Positions 10,905 through 18,100 of a stretch of DNA of 42,828 nucleotides are shown here, piece after piece. A model generated the notes under the pieces. The model saw only the letters and a list, made by a program, of their open reading frames with translations, had not been told where the DNA came from and made no database searches. The stretch spans positions 1 through 42,828 of IMG/VR virus record IMGVR_UViG_2778261419_000003; one strand, written 5' to 3'. A program made the position numbers and the translations under genes. Source of the DNA: a virus. Taxonomy: Duplodnaviria > Heunggongvirae > Uroviricota > Caudoviricetes. The stretch's first letter is position 1; each line of letters begins with the position of its first letter.

Positions 10905-11111
10905 ATGATTGCTGCAAACTACACAGTCAATCTCTACTGCGACTGCGATGAGTGCACCGGTAAGCAATGGGGAAGCCCAGATTTTGCCGAGTACATTGGA
11001 AATTCATGGTCTGGCTGCGCTAAAGAGGCGCGGCCACATGGCTGGCGTATCAGCAAGGATAGAACGCGAGCGTTCGCGCCAGGTCACAAGATTTCGAGGA
11101 CTAACCCATGA
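10905..11111 (+). CDS. Hypothetical small Cys-rich protein
   Basis: 68 aa ORF with CDCDEC motif; coupled between neighbouring genes. Confidence 0.35.
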   Translation: MIAANYTVNLYCDCDECTGKQWGSPDFAEYIGNSWSGCAKEARPHGWRISKDRTRAFAPGHKISRTNP

Positions 11112-11479
11112 CAACTATTACCAAAAAGCAACGCGCAGAGCTACGCATGAAGTTTGGCGGTCGCTGTACTTATTGTGGATGCGAACTACCAGAGAAAGGC
11201 TGGCATGCTTACCATGTAAAACCGGTCATTCGTTTTGATGGAAATATGCTTCACCAGGAACGTGACGATATATCAAACATGGTTCCAGCATGCCACCCAT
11301 GCAATCTGCACAAGCATTGCAGTAGCCTGGAAGATTACCGGCGAATTATCGGTGATGGTCGTCGTGAATTCCTTGTGTCCGGGAAAGGCAAAGCGCTGGT
11401 TCGTATGGGATTGGTTGAAATGAAATCTGACCCAGTGGTGTTCTGGTTCGAAAAATATCAAGAAGGAGCGTCAGCATGA
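11108..11479 (+). CDS. HNH endonuclease
   Basis: 123 aa; CTYCGC...H-x-H...ACHPCNLHK arrangement typical of the HNH zinc-finger nuclease motif. Confidence 0.75.
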   Translation: MTTITKKQRAELRMKFGGRCTYCGCELPEKGWHAYHVKPVIRFDGNMLHQERDDISNMVPACHPCNLHKHCSSLEDYRRIIGDGRREFLVSGKGKALVRMGLVEMKSDPVVFWFEKYQEGASA

Positions 11480-11955
11480 CAACTAACAACCACCCGGCGC
11501 ACGGTCCTGTATCACTCGATCGCCTGCACCAGATACGTGAAATACTCAGCAAAGCAGCAGCACAAAGCGACGGCGGTAATGTCGGCTATGCGATGGCTGA
11601 TGCTGTGAAGGTGATTAATGGAGTTCTGGAGTCGATGGCCCGTGAGCAAGTACGCCGTGAGCATGCTACATGGTCACAGGCTACTTTCGGCGATGTCGGT
11701 CCAGTTGGTCCTCTGAAGCACCTTTCTAAAGAAGCGCTCGAGGCTGCTGCTGAACCTGGCGACCTTAGCGAATGGGCTGACATGCAATTCCTGTTATGGG
11801 ATACGCAGCGTCGTGCCGGTATCAGTGATGAACAGATTACCCAAGCGATGGTAGAGAAGTTGGCGATTAACAAACAGCGCAAATGGCCTGAGCCGAAAGA
11901 CGGTGAGCCATGTGTACATGACAGAATGAATCATGAGCGTATTGATTTTAGCTGA
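11476..11955 (+). CDS. DUF550-like protein (putative dATP/dGTP pyrophosphohydrolase)
   Basis: 159 aa; resemblance to the DUF550 family common in lambdoid nin regions is from memory and not verified. Confidence 0.4.
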   Translation: MTTNNHPAHGPVSLDRLHQIREILSKAAAQSDGGNVGYAMADAVKVINGVLESMAREQVRREHATWSQATFGDVGPVGPLKHLSKEALEAAAEPGDLSEWADMQFLLWDTQRRAGISDEQITQAMVEKLAINKQRKWPEPKDGEPCVHDRMNHERIDFS

Positions 11956-12083
11956 CTCACCGTAGCAACAATGAATAATGTTTCGAGTGTATTTGATTAT
12001 GCATTGTGAGATGGACATTACTGAGAGTGTAAATCTTAGTTTATGATAATGGACAGCAATGAAATTATACCCGGAGAGCGATA

Positions 12084-12551
12084 ATGGATACTAAGAATGA
12101 AGTTGTGCAACATTCATCACCCCAGCAGGCAGTGAGAGTATTTGCCGAGGCCCTTGAACAAGCCGTTAGGGAGAACACTATAGAAGATTCGAACTCTCGG
12201 TCGCCTGGAAAAACTGTGCTTGATTCAAATTCAGAAATAAAATCTTCAACAATTGTCGGTGCTGGTGGATTGATCGGAACTGCTGGCGTTGCAGCCACTA
12301 CAGCTTCGGCCGTTACTGGTGGGTCAGCTGCTACTATAATGTCTGCAACAGCTGGAACAGTTGGAGCCAGTGTTGCATCTTTAGCAGGCGCAGCAGGAAC
12401 GGCAGGGGCTGCGTCGATCTCATCCGGAATGGCAGCCGTTGGTTCGGTTGTTGGAGGAGGAATGGCCGCCGGGGCAATAATCACAGCGGTGGCACCTGTC
12501 GCAGCAGTCGCAAGTGTTGCTTACTTGGCTTTTAAGCTTTTTGAAGATTAA
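12084..12551 (+). CDS. Gly/Ala/Ser/Thr-rich glycine-zipper membrane protein
   Basis: 155 aa; about 50 aa polar N-terminus then a long low-complexity G/A/T/S/V region ending in hydrophobic AVAPVAAVASVAYLAF; set in an AT-rich island. Confidence 0.45.
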   Translation: MDTKNEVVQHSSPQQAVRVFAEALEQAVRENTIEDSNSRSPGKTVLDSNSEIKSSTIVGAGGLIGTAGVAATTASAVTGGSAATIMSATAGTVGASVASLAGAAGTAGAASISSGMAAVGSVVGGGMAAGAIITAVAPVAAVASVAYLAFKLFED

Positions 12552-12756
12552 CTAACCTTTCATAAAGGCTGTTTAAGCAGGCTAATTTTCATATCTTAGT
12601 AAAGTTTCTGCTGGTTAATAATTAGCAGATACAAAACAGAATCCCGCGATTTCACGGCGGAGCCAGCTATGTTTGCTGAAGCACTGGTGCGTGCAAATTT
12701 GCCAGAGCTTTGTCAGCAGAAACAAATAGCGGCTTAATAAAACATTGCTAATTCAA

Positions 12757-12782
12757 CCCGCTACGGCGGGTTTTCTTTTTTT
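12757..12782 (+). terminator. Rho-independent terminator
   Basis: CCCGC-TACG-GCGGG hairpin followed by TTTTCTTTTTTT. Confidence 0.5.
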
Positions 12783-12844
12783 ACTACTGACAGAAAATTA
12801 ACAATTTGTGCTCTTAAAACGTTGATCATTTCCGTGCATAGGTA

Positions 12845-12864
12845 TACTGTATAAAAACACAGTA
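12845..12864. promoter_or_regulatory. LexA (SOS) box upstream of dinI
   Basis: TACTGTATAAAAACACAGTA fits the CTGT-N8-ACAG consensus; 18 nt upstream of the dinI start. Confidence 0.65.
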
Positions 12865-12882
12865 CATGCAATGGAGGCCATT

Positions 12883-13116
12883 ATGAAAGTTGAATTAACC
12901 ATTGATCGCATGAAAGAACTTCCTAAAGGCGCGGTACCAGCACTGGAGAAAGAATTGCTTAAGCGCCTGAATGATCACTATGACAATTGCAGGCTCACAA
13001 TCCGCCGTGCCGGGTCCGATGGGTTAAGTGTTTTCGGTGGAGACAAGGACGATAAAAAGAAAATCGAATCCATCCTCCAGGAAACCTGGGAAAGCGCTGA
13101 CGACTGGTTTTATTAG
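12883..13116 (+). CDS. dinI: DinI-family DNA damage-inducible protein
   Basis: C-terminus ...KKKIESILQETWESADDWFY matches E. coli DinI (ISEILQETWESADDWF); ATG 12883 with GGAGG SD. Confidence 0.85.
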   Translation: MKVELTIDRMKELPKGAVPALEKELLKRLNDHYDNCRLTIRRAGSDGLSVFGGDKDDKKKIESILQETWESADDWFY

Positions 13117-13233
13117 AATTGCGCTTAAGGCTGGCGCGCATTTATCAGAATACCGCAATTTGCGTAACCCTCTGATGCTGCTGCCGACAATCTTTAATCG
13201 CGTCTGTTAGTCGCTCGAAGGGAGAACATAAAT

Positions 13234-13482
13234 GTGAGTGATTCAGCTTTGCAAACGTCAGATGACAACTGGTATGACATTGTAAGAAGGTCTGACGGCT
13301 GCGTGGTGTTTAGCTTTCCTTCATCGGGCAGGCATCTAATTTATCGCGTCAATGGCATGGTTTCTATGCGGCCTTTGCTGGATGATGAAGAGGTCTTTAC
13401 TCCTAATGGTTTTATGCAGTTTATTCACCGTCTCGGCTACCGGGTAACCCCACCTTCTGATAATATGAAATCAACGGTCTGA
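13234..13482 (+). CDS. Hypothetical protein
   Basis: 82 aa ORF with GTG start and GGGAG SD; no recognised motif. Confidence 0.3.
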   Translation: MSDSALQTSDDNWYDIVRRSDGCVVFSFPSSGRHLIYRVNGMVSMRPLLDDEEVFTPNGFMQFIHRLGYRVTPPSDNMKSTV

Positions 13483-13516: not shown

Positions 13517-14116
13517 ATGGCGCACGAACTACAACTCATCAAGCAGTCATCAGGAATCCTGATCCCCGCGACGCCGGAGACCAGCGATATTCTGCAATCA
13601 AAAATCAAACTCGGCGCCGTGCTGGTAGCCGAATTTCGCCAGGTGAGGAATCCCGCATTCCATCGCCGTTTTTTTGCGCTCCTGAATCTCGGGTTTGAAT
13701 ACTGGGAACCTACTGGAGGGGCGATATCCAGCAATGAGCGTAAGCTCGTAAATGGTTATGCTAAATTCCTCGCGGCATTTGGTGGAAACGAAGGCGCACT
13801 GCTGGATGCTGCCGAGCAATATCTGGACCGCATCGCCGATAAGCGCGCCGGTAGCATCAGCATCTGCAAATCCTATGATGCTTATCGCGCCTGGGTGATC
13901 GTCGAGTCTGGTCACTATGACGCTATTCAGCTTCCTGACGGAACACTTCGCAAACATCCCCGCAGTATTGCCTTCGCTAACATGGACGAAACCGAGTTCC
14001 AGCAGCTGTACAAAGCCGCGCTCGATGTTCTGTGGCGATGGATACTCTCCCGATCATTTCGCAGTTGTGAAGAGGCAGAAAACGCCGCCGCCCAGCTGAT
14101 GAGCTTTGCGGGGTGA
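13517..14116 (+). CDS. Hypothetical nin-region protein
   Basis: 199 aa ORF with AGGAG-like SD; resembles conserved lambdoid nin-region proteins; family not verified. Confidence 0.45.
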   Translation: MAHELQLIKQSSGILIPATPETSDILQSKIKLGAVLVAEFRQVRNPAFHRRFFALLNLGFEYWEPTGGAISSNERKLVNGYAKFLAAFGGNEGALLDAAEQYLDRIADKRAGSISICKSYDAYRAWVIVESGHYDAIQLPDGTLRKHPRSIAFANMDETEFQQLYKAALDVLWRWILSRSFRSCEEAENAAAQLMSFAG

Positions 14117-14322
14117 TGGCGATGAAATTTTCCTGGTTCCACCATCACGAATGCACCACCGAACAGGCCGACGAGCTGGTGGAGAAATACCGGGCGCGCG
14201 GTGTAAAGACAGAGCGCAGCCTGAATCGCGACAACATCACCTGGACCGTCAGCGCGCAATTGCCGGAAGGCGACAACGCGCCTCGCCCGAGCTGGGTATG
14301 GCAAAGCAAGGCGTGGGGGTGA
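14113..14322 (+). CDS. Hypothetical small nin-region protein
   Basis: 69 aa; start overlaps upstream stop and its stop overlaps the next start (tight coupling). Confidence 0.4.
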   Translation: MMAMKFSWFHHHECTTEQADELVEKYRARGVKTERSLNRDNITWTVSAQLPEGDNAPRPSWVWQSKAWG

Positions 14323-14324
14323 GC

Positions 14325-14615
14325 ATGGCAAATTTACGCAAAGAGGCTCGTGGTCGTGATTGTCAGGTTCGAATTCCCGGCGTCTGCAACGGTAACCCGG
14401 AAACGTCTGTACTGGCGCACATTCGCCTGGCCGGGTTATGTGGCACCGGAATCAAACCGCCTGATCTGATTGCCACCATTGCATGCTCTGCCTGTCACGA
14501 CGAGATCGACCGCCGTACACATTTTGTCGATGCTGAGTATGCTAAAGAATGCTCGCTGGAAGGTATGGCGAGAACGCAGGTCATCTGGCTTAAAGAGGGG
14601 CTCGTGAAAGCATGA
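14325..14615 (+). CDS. YbcO-like (DUF1364) putative nuclease
   Basis: [37 protein letters not shown]...[11 protein letters not shown] resembles DLP12 YbcO as recalled; internal ATG 14325 chosen over the extended ORF. Confidence 0.5.
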
Positions 14616-16741: not shown

Positions 16742-17020
16742 ATGACCAGAATGAGCACCATTTACAGCAGACTTTCATATGGAACAGGAACCACGCTGAC
16801 CGGCTGCGGTGTATCAGCGAAGGCATATGCCGAAACAGCTAAAACAGCAAAAGAGGTGTCCTGGATGTTGGCCGACAGAATTGCAGGGTTAAGCCTGAGC
16901 GACTGGGCAATTATTGTCGGTATCGCATGCACTGTAATCACCTGTGCAGTGAATTGGTATTACAGGAAAAAGGAAAGGGAGGACCGGCTTAATGGCAATG
17001 TCACCAAAGCTGAAGAATAG
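16742..17020 (+). CDS. S: Pinholin (phage 21 S21-like, class II) with dual-start motif
   Basis: M-T-R-M dual start (ATG 16742 and 16751); ...[29 protein letters not shown] resembles S21; GGAGGTGAGG SD. Confidence 0.75.
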
Positions 17021-17564
17021 CGTTATTGCAGCGATACCCGCTGGCGCTATTGCTATCGCTGCGGCGTTGATTACTGGCCCAACGGGTAATGATGGCCTTG
17101 AAGGTGTACGCTATCAGCCTTATCGGGATGTTGTTGGAGTGTGGACTGTATGCTGGGGCCATACTGGTAAAGATATTATCCTCGGCAAGACCTACACCAA
17201 AGCAGAGTGTCGAGCGTTACTTAATAAAGACCTCACCACCGTAGCGCAGCAGATTAATCCGTACATCAAGGTTCCGATCCCTGAAACTACTTGGGGCGCT
17301 CTTTACTCGTTTGTCTACAACGTCGGTGCTGGCAATTTCAAAACCTCCACTCTTCTCTACAAAATAAACCAGGGTGATATCAAAGGCGCATGTGATCAGC
17401 TTCGTCGATGGACATATGCCGGTGGTAAGCAATGGAAAGGGTTGATTACCCGGCGTGAGATTGAGCGTGAAGTTTGCCTGTGGGCAGAAAAACCTCAGGT
17501 TCTTGGTGATGGGCTCGGGCCGCTTAACCCAGGCATTCCGGTATCAGTTCCGGGGGTATTCTGA
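16992..17564 (+). CDS. R: SAR endolysin (lysozyme, phage 21 R21-like)
   Basis: N-terminal SAR domain [25 protein letters not shown]; [26 protein letters not shown]...[31 protein letters not shown] is near-identical to R21 as recalled. Confidence 0.9.
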
Positions 17565-18100
17565 TGAAACCCAGAAAAATTACGATTGTTGCGGTTCTGC
17601 TGGTGGCTGTCGTAATCATTATTGCAGTGCTTAGCGTATTACTGGTTCGTAGCCGCTCAGCTCTTGAAACAGAACAGAGTGAGAATCGGGTATTACGTAA
17701 TGATAACGCGCTGCAGGCGACGGTGATAACTACACAGGCTTTCAACTTCAATCGGTTTAACCAGATAGCAGAGAACGCCAACCGCCTTAACTCGCTGATC
17801 GATGCCGGTACTGAGAAAACTGTCATCGAATACCGGGAGATTCTCCGACGTGAAAAGACCTGTGATCTGCCTGTTCCTGCTGATGTCGCTGGTGGGCTGC
17901 TCAAATACGCGTACCGTTTACGTGCCAGCGCAATGCACCCCGATACCGGGAACACTAACGCAACCGATGATAGTACCGCTGCCGCCAGCTCAATGACGTA
18001 TTGCCAGGCCGTCCTCTGGATTGAACCTTTGCTGGCTGTTATTGAGAAGGGCAACAATAACCTGGCGGGTATACGAGAGATTGAGAAGTTACGAAAATGA
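17564..18100 (+). CDS. Rz: Rz-like inner-membrane spanin
   Basis: 178 aa; N-terminal TM helix, coiled-coil periplasmic domain; directly follows the endolysin. Confidence 0.7.
   Translation: MKPRKITIVAVLLVAVVIIIAVLSVLLVRSRSALETEQSENRVLRNDNALQATVITTQAFNFNRFNQIAENANRLNSLIDAGTEKTVIEYREILRREKTCDLPVPADVAGGLLKYAYRLRASAMHPDTGNTNATDDSTAAASSMTYCQAVLWIEPLLAVIEKGNNNLAGIREIEKLRK
17802..17996 (+). CDS. Rz1: Rz1-like outer-membrane lipoprotein spanin embedded in Rz
   Basis: ORF in +1 frame inside Rz; lipobox LVGC; proline-rich C-terminus. Confidence 0.6.
   Translation: MPVLRKLSSNTGRFSDVKRPVICLFLLMSLVGCSNTRTVYVPAQCTPIPGTLTQPMIVPLPPAQ

What the first reader, a model, noticed from the sequence alone, without database searches (positions are those of the whole stretch)
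11956..12870. AT-rich island with a Gly/Ala-rich glycine-zipper membrane protein, a 22-codon ORF and terminator, next to LexA-controlled dinI
Seen in sequence: the 155 aa product of 12084..12551 is dominated by a low-complexity G/A/S/T/V stretch with a hydrophobic C-terminus, a composition like glycine-zipper membrane or microcin-like proteins. It is followed by a short ORF (ATG 12669, MFAEALVRANLPELCQQKQIAA, stop at 12735-12737) and a terminator (12757-12782). Directly downstream is a near-consensus LexA box and dinI, so this part of the prophage responds to the SOS signal. Function of the Gly-rich protein is unknown.
Basis: partly seen in the sequence, partly recalled or inferred. Interest (0 to 1): 0.5.

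Follow-up and report, generated by a model that had tools for sequence, protein, structure and literature searches.

The report
Orphan glycine-zipper membrane gene in prophage
A variable cargo slot of an E. coli-type lambdoid prophage carries a real, conserved gene for a small uncharged Gly/Ala-rich membrane protein from an undescribed family, while the "22-codon ORF" beside it is only the leftover tail of a methyltransferase gene and the dinI/LexA-box unit is ordinary.

Summary
All the sequence features exist at the stated coordinates.

**Gly-rich ORF (12084..12551).** It is a genuine gene. Across 21 family genes the differences by codon position are 0.22/0.18/0.65, replacements are conservative and no member has a stop. 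The antisense ORF scores worse. The family has no Pfam, NCBIfam, PHROG, PADLOC or PDB match. It is a solo gene scattered on plasmids, integrative elements and islands of Proteobacteria.

**Shared module.** Its C-terminal ~80 aa recurs in about 500 protein clusters. Of the 144 newly found among the 150 best-scoring, 37 are LRAT/NlpC-P60 fusions, 4 are Xre-HTH fusions and 1 is an ADP-ribosylglycohydrolase fusion. This points to an in-out-in glycine-zipper membrane hairpin.

**Genomic setting.** The gene lies in a ~760-bp novel segment (11910-12670), in a slot where related E. coli prophages carry unrelated cargo. The exact protein is indexed in 558 assembly blocks.

**22-codon ORF.** It is the last 21 codons of an mEp237-type C5-cytosine methyltransferase, with an ATG created at the junction. 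It is not a gene.

**Backbone.** The terminator, LexA box (12845-12864) and dinI (12883..13116) are conserved backbone. The terminator separates them from the Gly-rich gene.

**Function.** My best inference is a lysogen-expressed inner-membrane oligomer acting in exclusion or defence. That step is untested, and microcin-like and holin roles are disfavoured. Interest is moderate to low.

The parts
11910..12083 (+). Left part of the novel segment. It holds the divergent last ~15 codons of the DUF550/dATP-dGTP pyrophosphohydrolase gene (stop at 11953-11955) and a 37%-GC leader with two weak promoter-like sites (11952-11979, 12021-12050) and a GGAG Shine-Dalgarno at 12073-12076.
   Evidence: Homology to E. 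coli prophages ends at 11909. Composition. The promoter scan is not above chance. The sequence was read directly.
12084..12551 (+). Gly/Ala-rich membrane protein gene, 155 aa from ATG 12084. An alternative family-typical start at GTG 12216 would give 111 aa.
   Evidence: ORF. Purifying selection in the sense frame. Family homologs. The exact protein is indexed in 558 assembly blocks, and the gene is called as 155 aa in all five places shown.
12084..12248 (+). N-terminal hydrophilic extension (aa 1-55), unique to this allele. AlphaFold2 predicts a helix at aa 13-35. This extension is absent from the ancestral ~105-aa form.
   Evidence: No homolog covers it. Structure prediction. It is not a methyltransferase relic.
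12249..12551 (+). Conserved uncharged core (aa 56-155), predicted as four helices in two hairpins with GG/GGG turns. It contains the invariant G-G-G-M-A-x-G...P...Y-G motif and ends in K-L-F-E-D.
   Evidence: Alignment A1, hydropathy, AlphaFold2 helices 55-79, 82-104, 109-122 and 127-154, module fusions.
12065..12484 (-). Antisense ORF (139 aa). It is a by-product of GCN/GGN codons on the sense strand and is not coding.
   Evidence: This frame shares wobble positions with the sense frame. It shows lower identity (0.64 against 0.69), non-conservative replacements (BLOSUM62 -0.59 against +0.22) and 0.8 stops per homolog.
12552..12668 (.). AT-rich spacer forming the right part of the novel segment. 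It has no homolog and no Rfam match.
12669..12737 (+). 3' relic of a C5-cytosine DNA methyltransferase gene: its last 21 codons plus the stop, with an ATG created at the recombination junction. This is a pseudo-ORF.
   Evidence: Alignment with E. coli prophage relics annotated as methyltransferase pseudogenes. The 55-aa relic ...CGNAVPPPFAEALVRANLPELCQQKQIAA* is 98% identical to the mEp237 C-5 cytosine methylase. It also matches the C-terminus of phrog_23072.
12755..12782 (+). Intrinsic terminator belonging to the backbone. It was originally the methyltransferase gene's terminator and now also ends the Gly-rich transcript.
   Evidence: It is invariant in four prophages.
12845..12864 (+). LexA (SOS) box TACTG-N10-CAGTA in the dinI promoter region.
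   Evidence: It is conserved in E. coli prophages.
12883..13116 (+). dinI (77 aa), with a GGAGG Shine-Dalgarno at 12874-12878.
   Evidence: Pfam DinI 1.9e-26. RefSeq and gene-call lengths in relatives.

Best explanation
The segment 11910-12670 is horizontally acquired cargo sitting in a hypervariable slot of a Rac-like lambdoid prophage of E. coli. The slot lies between the DUF550 gene and the conserved block 'methyltransferase 3' relic - terminator - LexA box - dinI'. The only gene in the segment (12084..12551) encodes a stand-alone member of an undescribed glycine-zipper membrane-hairpin family. SHOWN: it is a real gene under purifying selection. It travels alone on mobile DNA. Its C-terminal ~80 aa are the same module that sits at the C-terminus of LRAT/NlpC-P60, Xre-HTH and ADP-ribosylglycohydrolase proteins. 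INFERRED: the 95-residue uncharged core inserts into the inner membrane as two helical hairpins, with the N-terminus and the Lys-bearing C-terminus in the cytoplasm and tight GG/GGG turns at the periplasmic face, and it self-associates through small-residue packing. MOST LIKELY ROLE (inferred, about 0.3 on its own): an accessory membrane protein that alters envelope permeability or DNA entry. That would mean superinfection exclusion or abortive defence benefiting the lysogen, as with other small inner-membrane proteins in prophage accessory slots. The 22-codon ORF is a dead relic. dinI and its LexA box form a separate, ordinary SOS unit.
For: Coding: 21 family genes over 99 codon columns differ by 0.22/0.18/0.65 at codon positions 1/2/3. 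Sense-frame identity is 0.69, replaced positions average BLOSUM62 +0.22, and there are no stops. Several homologs have Shine-Dalgarno sites at their starts. Membrane: residues 56-150 carry no charge and the C-terminal helix has Kyte-Doolittle hydropathy of about 2.0. AlphaFold2 predicts four helices broken at GG, AAGT and GGG. Module: the exhaustive profile search finds 506 clusters. Of 144 representatives, 37 are LRAT fusions, 4 HTH fusions and 1 an ADP-ribosylglycohydrolase fusion. The GGGM turn lies a median of 36 aa from the C-terminus and is followed by a Lys/Arg-rich tail. In S. mitis L038 and P0124 the module lies between soluble N- and C-terminal parts, which implies a hairpin. Mobility and solo status: the gene is found in a comM-inserted element, on Rep3/ParA plasmid-like contigs, on islands with RelE and HepT/MNT, next to MzaA, and near type I restriction-modification genes. 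No neighbour is conserved. Variable slot: KL53, KMi029 and WEM25 carry other cargo or none between the same boundaries. Maintenance: the exact protein is indexed in 558 assembly blocks, including on a different replication backbone. Relic.
Against: No experiment and no homolog of known function exists, so the exclusion/defence role rests only on context and analogy. There is no PADLOC hit. The family is absent from 2.9 million viral contigs, so it is not typical phage cargo. Promoter evidence is no better than chance, so expression in the lysogen is unproven. The AlphaFold2 model is poor (mean pLDDT 60), Foldseek finds nothing, and the internal-duplication signal is not significant (hhalign P about 0.01, probability 4.5%). 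The start codon is ambiguous: ATG 12084 has a GGAG Shine-Dalgarno, while the family-typical position is GTG 12216. One homolog (P0029) has an extra N-terminal hydrophobic segment that fits an N-in/C-in four-pass topology poorly.
Confidence: 0.5

Rival explanations
1. It is a lytic-cycle membrane effector. The gene would be transcribed from pR with the nin region after induction, and would depolarise or remodel the inner membrane as a holin/antiholin-like or host-shutoff helper, rather than serving the lysogen.
For: The gene is co-oriented with the early-right operon, between the replication genes and Q. Its own promoter is not supported above chance. Glycine-rich helices pack into rings in known membrane oligomers; the only hint here is a weak resemblance to helix 1 of the ATP synthase c-subunit (E = 0.2).
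Against: The prophage has its own complete lysis cassette more than 4 kb downstream (holin 16742-17020, lysozyme 16992-17564). Most homologs are on plasmids and chromosomal islands with no phage context, and none is in viral contigs. Related prophages do without the gene.
Confidence: 0.15
2. It is an adaptor, decoy or immunity protein. The head-less module would pair within the membrane with the same module on LRAT-type (phospholipase-like) or other effectors, neutralising or recruiting them.
For: The module is shared with 37 of 144 LRAT fusions. Glycine-zipper helices are heteromerisation surfaces (established knowledge). In Xenorhabdus the gene lies among T6SS effector and immunity genes, next to a PAAR-like gene and near TsiV.
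Against: No LRAT gene or other module-bearing gene is a neighbour in any of the 20 core-family loci or in the window.
Confidence: 0.07
3. It is a secreted or surface bacteriocin of the class II microcin or CdzC/D glycine-zipper type.
For: It is a Gly/Ala/Ser-rich small protein whose composition resembles microcins and CdzC/D (PMC5380434).
Against: There is no double-glycine leader; family N-termini are M-x(2-5)-K-x-S-T. No C39-ABC or T1SS exporter and no immunity gene occurs in the window or in about 20 homologous loci. The same module is fused C-terminally to cytoplasmic domains such as HTH and LRAT.
Confidence: 0.04
4. It is not a functional gene here. The ORF would be a hitch-hiking remnant, or the antisense ORF 12065..12484 would be the real product.
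For: The allele has lost the family's canonical ATG (GTG at 12216) and has a unique N-terminal extension without homologs. The antisense frame stays about 95 codons open in all homologs.
Against: The sense frame is intact and identical in 558 assembly blocks. The family is under strong purifying selection in the sense frame, and the antisense frame scores worse and carries stops. ATG 12084 has a GGAG Shine-Dalgarno site 7 nt upstream.
Confidence: 0.04

Closest known systems
Glycine-zipper 2TM hairpin proteins (SlyB/Pcp, Rickettsia 17-kDa antigen; Pfam PF05433, PF13488, PF13441)
   Same: These are Gly/Ala-rich helix-turn-helix membrane hairpins with small-xxx-small packing that self-associate laterally.
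   Different: There is no Pfam match even at E <= 1, and no lipobox or signal peptide. The predicted location is the inner membrane with both ends in the cytoplasm. The stand-alone form has about four helices and lies on mobile DNA.
C-terminal membrane anchors of LRAT/PLAAT (NlpC-P60) enzymes
   Same: The window protein's C-terminal ~80 aa are homologous to the module at the C-terminus of bacterial LRAT-domain proteins, often present in two copies.
   Different: The window protein has no catalytic head; it is the anchor module on its own.
Small inner-membrane superinfection-exclusion proteins in prophage accessory slots (P22 SieA, HK97 gp15, T4 Imm; from my own knowledge)
   Same: Each is a single small membrane protein gene in a variable prophage slot, present in some relatives and absent in others.
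   Different: There is no sequence similarity and no functional test. The family is mostly non-phage and is absent from IMG/VR contigs.
Glycine-zipper toxins: the T6SS Tde1 N-terminal motif (PMC10240207), Tse4, and CdzC/CdzD (PMC5380434)
   Same: Glycine-zipper motifs mediate membrane insertion or permeabilisation.
   Different: Those toxins depend on a secretion system and a cognate immunity protein, whereas this gene is solo. No sequence homology was detected with any library.
ATP synthase c-subunit helix 1 (GxGxGxG ring-packing motif)
   Same: There is a local motif resemblance: AAisSGmAavGsvVGGGmAaG against [22 protein letters not shown].
   Different: E = 0.2, which is not significant. 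There is no proton-binding carboxylate and the architecture differs.
mEp237-type lambdoid nin-region backbone (C5-methyltransferase, terminator, LexA box, dinI)
   Same: Window 12671-12900 is 97-98% identical to mEp237 and to E. coli prophages.
   Different: Only the last 21 methyltransferase codons survive here.

Membership tests
Pfam glycine-zipper families (PF05433 Rick_17kDa_Anti, PF13488 Gly-zipper_Omp, PF13436, PF13441) | Match to the family HMM | tested here: not met
   hmmscan against Pfam-A at E <= 1 returns no family for the 155-aa protein. None of these families appears among 144 superfamily representatives.
Pfam glycine-zipper families (SlyB/Pcp type) | Lipoprotein signal peptide with a lipobox | tested here: not met
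   The N-termini (MDTKNEV... or the family form M-S-x-x-x-K-S-S-T) contain no Cys or lipobox.
Class II microcins / double-glycine-leader bacteriocins | N-terminal leader ending in GG/GA with the L-x-x-x-E-L-x-x-(I/V)-x-G-G pattern | tested here: not met
   Family N-termini are 3-6 residues before a conserved Lys, and no leader consensus is present.
Class II microcins / CdzC-D bacteriocins | Adjacent dedicated exporter (C39-ABC or T1SS) and immunity gene | tested here: not met
   No conserved neighbour occurs in about 20 loci. The Pfam census of 92 neighbouring proteins listed no ABC or C39 exporter family among its 25 most frequent families. The window neighbours are DUF550 and dinI.
Phage holins | Location in the lysis cassette with an endolysin, and a match to a holin family | tested here: not met
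   The holin, lysozyme and a downstream ORF lie at 16742-18100, after Q. The Gly-rich protein has no holin Pfam or PHROG match.
Type I toxin-antitoxin toxins (Hok, TisB, Ldr and similar) | A hydrophobic peptide under 60 aa with a known cis-antisense RNA | tested here: not met
   The product is 105-155 aa, and Rfam finds nothing in 11800-13200 at E <= 1.
Known anti-phage defence systems (PADLOC-DB v2) | Match to a defence-protein HMM | tested here: not met
   The only hit is PDC-M09A at E = 0.11. The short form, P0004 and P0016 give no hit.
Moron (Hendrix-type prophage accessory gene) | Present in some and absent in closely related phages at the same position, with a composition shift | tested here: met
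   The slot holds different cargo in KL53, KMi029 and WEM25. GC drops to 37-42% in the flanks.
Moron (Hendrix-type prophage accessory gene) | Own promoter upstream and terminator downstream | tested here: inconclusive
   A terminator is present but belongs to the backbone. The promoter-like sites are not above chance.
DinI family, LexA-regulated | DinI Pfam domain and a CTG-N10-CAG SOS box in the promoter region | tested here: met
   PF06183 at 1.9e-26, 92.6 bits against a cutoff of 24.2. The box is at 12845-12864.
C5-cytosine DNA methyltransferase (for the 22-codon ORF) | Full catalytic domain with motifs I-X | tested here: not met
   Only the 21 residues after motif X (GNAVPPP|FAEAL...) remain, so this is a relic.

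The most novel reading that the evidence does not exclude
The stand-alone glycine-zipper hairpin protein is a new single-gene, membrane-acting immunity or exclusion factor, against phages or other incoming DNA, that spreads between plasmids, integrative elements and prophages. Its core would define a previously undescribed, widespread membrane-insertion domain (about 500 clusters at 50% identity) that bacteria also use to target LRAT-type phospholipase-like effectors, HTH regulators and an ADP-ribosylglycohydrolase to the membrane.
Probability: 0.2. Interest if true: 0.6.

Novelty: new variant of a known kind. Interest (0 to 1): 0.33.

Why it matters
If the protein is shown to act in exclusion or defence, it would add a minimal, partner-less membrane effector to the repertoire of prophage-encoded immunity. 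It would also give a function to a domain that current libraries do not cover. The module's fusion to LRAT/NlpC-P60 heads further suggests an unstudied class of membrane-targeted bacterial lipid-modifying effectors. On the practical side, the work corrects two annotations: the 22-codon ORF should be treated as a methyltransferase pseudogene remnant, and the Gly-rich gene is not under LexA control. It also identifies the 3' end of the methyltransferase gene as a recurrent recombination boundary of a cargo slot in Rac-like E. coli prophages.

Tried and rejected
1. The idea that the N-terminal extension (VFAEALEQAV) is a second methyltransferase relic was rejected: BLASTP gives no alignment.
2. 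A conserved partner gene was not found. All-vs-all comparison of neighbours in 6 and then 20 loci shows only comM fragments and genus-specific ankyrin proteins.
3. Ankyrin/PDC-M72A/MzaA neighbours occur in 3-4 loci only (Sulfurovum, Herbaspirillum) and are not a system component.
4. Structure-based annotation failed. The AlphaFold2 model has mean pLDDT 60. Foldseek against PDB gives 0 hits. The PDB profile search gives only E about 0.2 to the ATP synthase c-subunit.
5. Internal duplication of the core was tested with hhalign and is not significant (P about 0.01, probability 4.5%).
6. tblastn against phages and plasmids gave no match, but BLAST's low-complexity filter probably masks this query, so these negatives are weak. 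blastn 'distant' against phages also found nothing. The IMG/VR pattern scan is the more reliable negative.
7. Literature searches linking a glycine zipper to prophages, defence or LRAT found no relevant description. The S. mitis bacteriocin paper only cites Cdz.
8. Rfam found no RNA family in the island.
9. The short contigs carrying the HTH-fused relatives gave no context.
10. Openness of the antisense frame cannot decide coding, because its wobble positions coincide with the sense frame. The decision came from replacement quality and stops instead.

Full report
**1. Observation**

The stated features are all present.
- ORF 12084..12551 (+) encodes the quoted 155-aa protein, and ORF 12669..12737 (+) encodes the quoted 22-aa peptide.
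- Residues 56-150 contain no charged residue. Residues 56-155 are 30% Ala, 18% Gly, 12% Val, 10% Thr and 10% Ser. Only about aa 115-150 reach transmembrane-type hydropathy.
- The terminator (stem 12755-12772, T-run to 12782) folds at -12.8 kcal/mol, with z = -3.5 against shuffles.
- The LexA box TACTGTATAAAAACACAGTA is at 12845-12864 and is unique in the window.
- dinI is confirmed by Pfam (1.9e-26). Its start in annotated relatives corresponds to 12883, giving 77 aa.
- 'AT-rich island' applies to the flanks (37-42% GC) and not to the Gly/Ala-coding core (58% GC).

**2. The 22-codon ORF is a relic**

E. coli prophages and phage mEp237 share DNA with the window only from about 12671 onward, at 97-98% identity. 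In those genomes the stretch is annotated as an N-terminally truncated DNA (cytosine) methyltransferase pseudogene.

The longer relic of strain WEM25 translates to QGFPEWY...CGNAVPPPFAEALVRANLPELCQQKQIAA*. It is 98% identical to the C-terminus of the intact C-5 cytosine methylase of mEp237.

The DNA alignment shows that the window keeps only the last 21 codons. The ATG arises at the junction, where CCGTTC has become CTATGTTT. The breakpoint differs between prophages: 21, 33 or 55 codons are retained. So the 3' end of this methyltransferase gene is a recurrent recombination boundary. The terminator, LexA box and dinI downstream are almost invariant backbone.

**3. The cargo slot**

On the left, homology to E. 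coli prophages stops at 11909/11910, inside the last codons of the DUF550 (dATP/dGTP pyrophosphohydrolase, PF04447) gene. Between the same boundaries the slot contents differ:
- KL53 has three unrelated genes.
- KMi029 has a pseudogene and a 55-aa ORF.
- WEM25 has nothing but the relic.

The ~760 bp at 11910-12670 are therefore variable cargo.

The window as a whole is a Rac-like lambdoid prophage with integrase, RecE/RecT, YdaT, replication genes, the nin region, Q, lysis genes and tail genes. It is about 94% identical to E. coli prophages. Its integrase is found next to kch in E. coli chromosomes.

The exact 155-aa protein is indexed in 558 blocks of public assemblies. In all five places shown it has the DUF550-gene-dinI arrangement, once on a lambda-P-type replication backbone. 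It is nevertheless absent from 5,426 complete E. coli genomes.

**4. The Gly-rich ORF is a real gene**

A search of 5.8 billion proteins gave only 23 hits, none named and none with a Pfam domain. A scan of 185,579 species genomes gave 48 loci scattered over Gamma-, Beta- and Epsilonproteobacteria.

A codon alignment of 21 family genes shows differences of 0.22/0.18/0.65 at codon positions 1/2/3. In the sense frame, identity is 0.69, replaced positions are conservative (BLOSUM62 +0.22) and there are no stops.

The antisense frame shares the wobble position, so it stays open simply because GCN/GGN codons read NGC/NCC on the other strand. It has lower identity (0.64), non-conservative replacements (-0.59) and 0.8 stops per gene. 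In-frame fusion of the same module to known domains (section 6) settles the frame.

**5. Length and start**

In nearly all homologs a Met lies 3-6 residues before a conserved Lys (M-S-x-x-x-K-S-S-T...). Seven homologs cannot be longer than 108-113 aa, because a stop lies just upstream. The ancestral form is therefore about 105 aa.

The window allele has GTG (12216) at that position, preceded only by a weak GGA. ATG 12084 has a GGAG 7 nt upstream, and the gene is called as 155 aa in all five places shown. The 55-aa hydrophilic N-terminus has no homolog anywhere and is not a methyltransferase relic. N-terminal length does vary in the family: the Vibrio and Arcobacter members also lack the canonical Met. 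I rate the 155-aa form slightly more likely than the 111-aa form.

**6. What the protein is**

No Pfam, NCBIfam, PHROG (only a compositional tail-fibre hit at E = 0.1) or PADLOC family matches. The PDB profile search gives only E about 0.2 to the glycine-motif helix 1 of ATP synthase c-subunits. The AlphaFold2 model is poor (pLDDT 60), although it predicts helices 55-79, 82-104, 109-122 and 127-154, broken at GG, AAGT and GGG. Foldseek finds nothing.

The exhaustive HMM search of 1.84 billion representatives found 506 clusters. Of the 144 newly found among the 150 best-scoring:
- 37 carry an N-terminal LRAT/NlpC-P60 domain followed by one or two copies of the ~80-aa module.
- 4 carry an Xre-type HTH. 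Two of these end in ...GYGLFKLFED/DE like the window family.
- 1 carries an ADP-ribosylglycohydrolase.
- The rest are short stand-alone proteins.

The invariant GGGM turn lies a median of 36 residues from the C-terminus and is followed by a Lys/Arg-rich tail. In S. mitis L038 and in P0124 the module lies between soluble N- and C-terminal parts.

Together these facts indicate an in-out-in membrane hairpin used as an anchor. The stand-alone family is this module preceded by a further Gly/Ala/Thr-rich helix pair. An internal duplication is suggested but is not significant.

**7. Context of homologs**

The gene is always solo. It occurs:
- at the edge of a small integrative element in comM of Vibrio (serine recombinase, Mob, Rep);
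- next to a comM fragment in a metagenomic genome;
- on ~25-kb Rep3/ParA contigs;
- on an island with RelE, HepT/MNT and IS fragments;
- after a helicase and a 264-aa ORF with no family match in E. albertii;
- after a PAAR-like gene, among VRR-NUC effector and TsiV immunity genes, in Xenorhabdus;
- divergent from MzaA in Herbaspirillum;
- near type I restriction-modification genes.

No neighbour is conserved. None of 2.9 million viral contigs encodes a relative.

**8. Mechanism**

Shown: this is a real, selected, mobile, partner-less gene whose core is a membrane-anchor module.

Inferred: it inserts in the inner membrane as two hairpins and oligomerises through small-residue packing.

Most likely role, by analogy with other small membrane proteins in prophage accessory slots and from its association with variable and defence-type islands: envelope-level exclusion or abortive defence that benefits the lysogen. 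On its own this step has a probability of about 0.3.

Rivals:
- A lytic-cycle membrane effector. The gene is co-oriented with the nin operon, but the prophage has its own lysis cassette at 16742-18100, and most homologs are non-phage.
- An adaptor or immunity protein for module-bearing effectors. No co-located LRAT gene was found.
- A microcin/Cdz-like bacteriocin. There is no leader, exporter or immunity gene.
- A non-functional ORF. This is contradicted.

The gene is not part of the SOS unit, because the terminator precedes the LexA box and both belong to the backbone.

**9. Verdict**

The dinI/LexA unit and the terminator are already known backbone. The 22-codon ORF is not a real feature. 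The Gly-rich gene is a new family-level variant of a known kind: glycine-zipper membrane hairpin proteins carried as mobile-element cargo. Its function is unknown. Interest is moderate to low (0.33). The undescribed module and its LRAT fusions are the most reusable result.

Noticed in passing
L061 1294-3604 (E. coli KL53, same slot as window 11910-12670): The equivalent cargo slot holds three unrelated genes (106 aa, 216 aa, and a 367-aa HTH-domain protein). These may be another accessory or defence cassette.
   Followed up: no
window 12669-12737; L001 2969-3067; L002 2899-3066; L062 2366-2533: The methyltransferase 3' relic is cut at different points in different prophages, leaving 21, 33 or 55 codons, while mEp237 keeps the intact gene. 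The 3' end of this gene seems to be a recurrent recombination boundary.
   Followed up: partly
window 11108-11479: An HNH endonuclease gene overlaps the start of the DUF550 gene (ATGA). It is present in only a few related E. coli prophages, so it may be a separately mobile insertion.
   Followed up: no
P0027, P0038, P0050, P0069 and others (superfamily representatives): Bacterial LRAT/NlpC-P60-domain proteins carry one or two C-terminal copies of the same glycine-zipper module (37 of 144 representatives). No Pfam model covers the module.
   Followed up: partly
window 12084-12551 against the databases: The exact protein is indexed in 558 assembly blocks. Yet the exact look-up reports it as not in the 15-billion-protein collection, and it is absent from 5,426 complete E. 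coli genomes. The species and lineage of the carriers were not determined beyond E. coli-type context.
   Followed up: partly
L019 5607-6336 (Xenorhabdus mauleonii): The homolog directly follows a PAAR-like gene and lies between two large VRR-NUC-like proteins. A TsiV-type immunity gene is nearby. This is a T6SS effector/immunity neighbourhood.
   Followed up: no
L038 5836-7724 (Streptococcus mitis SK137): A 174-aa protein has a soluble helix, then the module, then a C-terminal coiled coil, and is followed by a 453-aa unknown protein. P0124 has the same arrangement behind an ADP-ribosylglycohydrolase domain.
   Followed up: no
window 14106-14615: The mechanically listed 169-aa TTG ORF is over-long. 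The YbcO nuclease domain covers only aa 76-165, and relatives are called at 96-105 aa.
   Followed up: partly
window 13234-13482: A conserved 82-aa protein of unknown function (phrog_340, 4e-20) always follows dinI in these prophages.
   Followed up: no
L028 3104-6315 (Herbaspirillum sp.): The homolog is divergently adjacent to a gene matching MzaA (4e-99), the first gene of the Mza defence system.
   Followed up: partly
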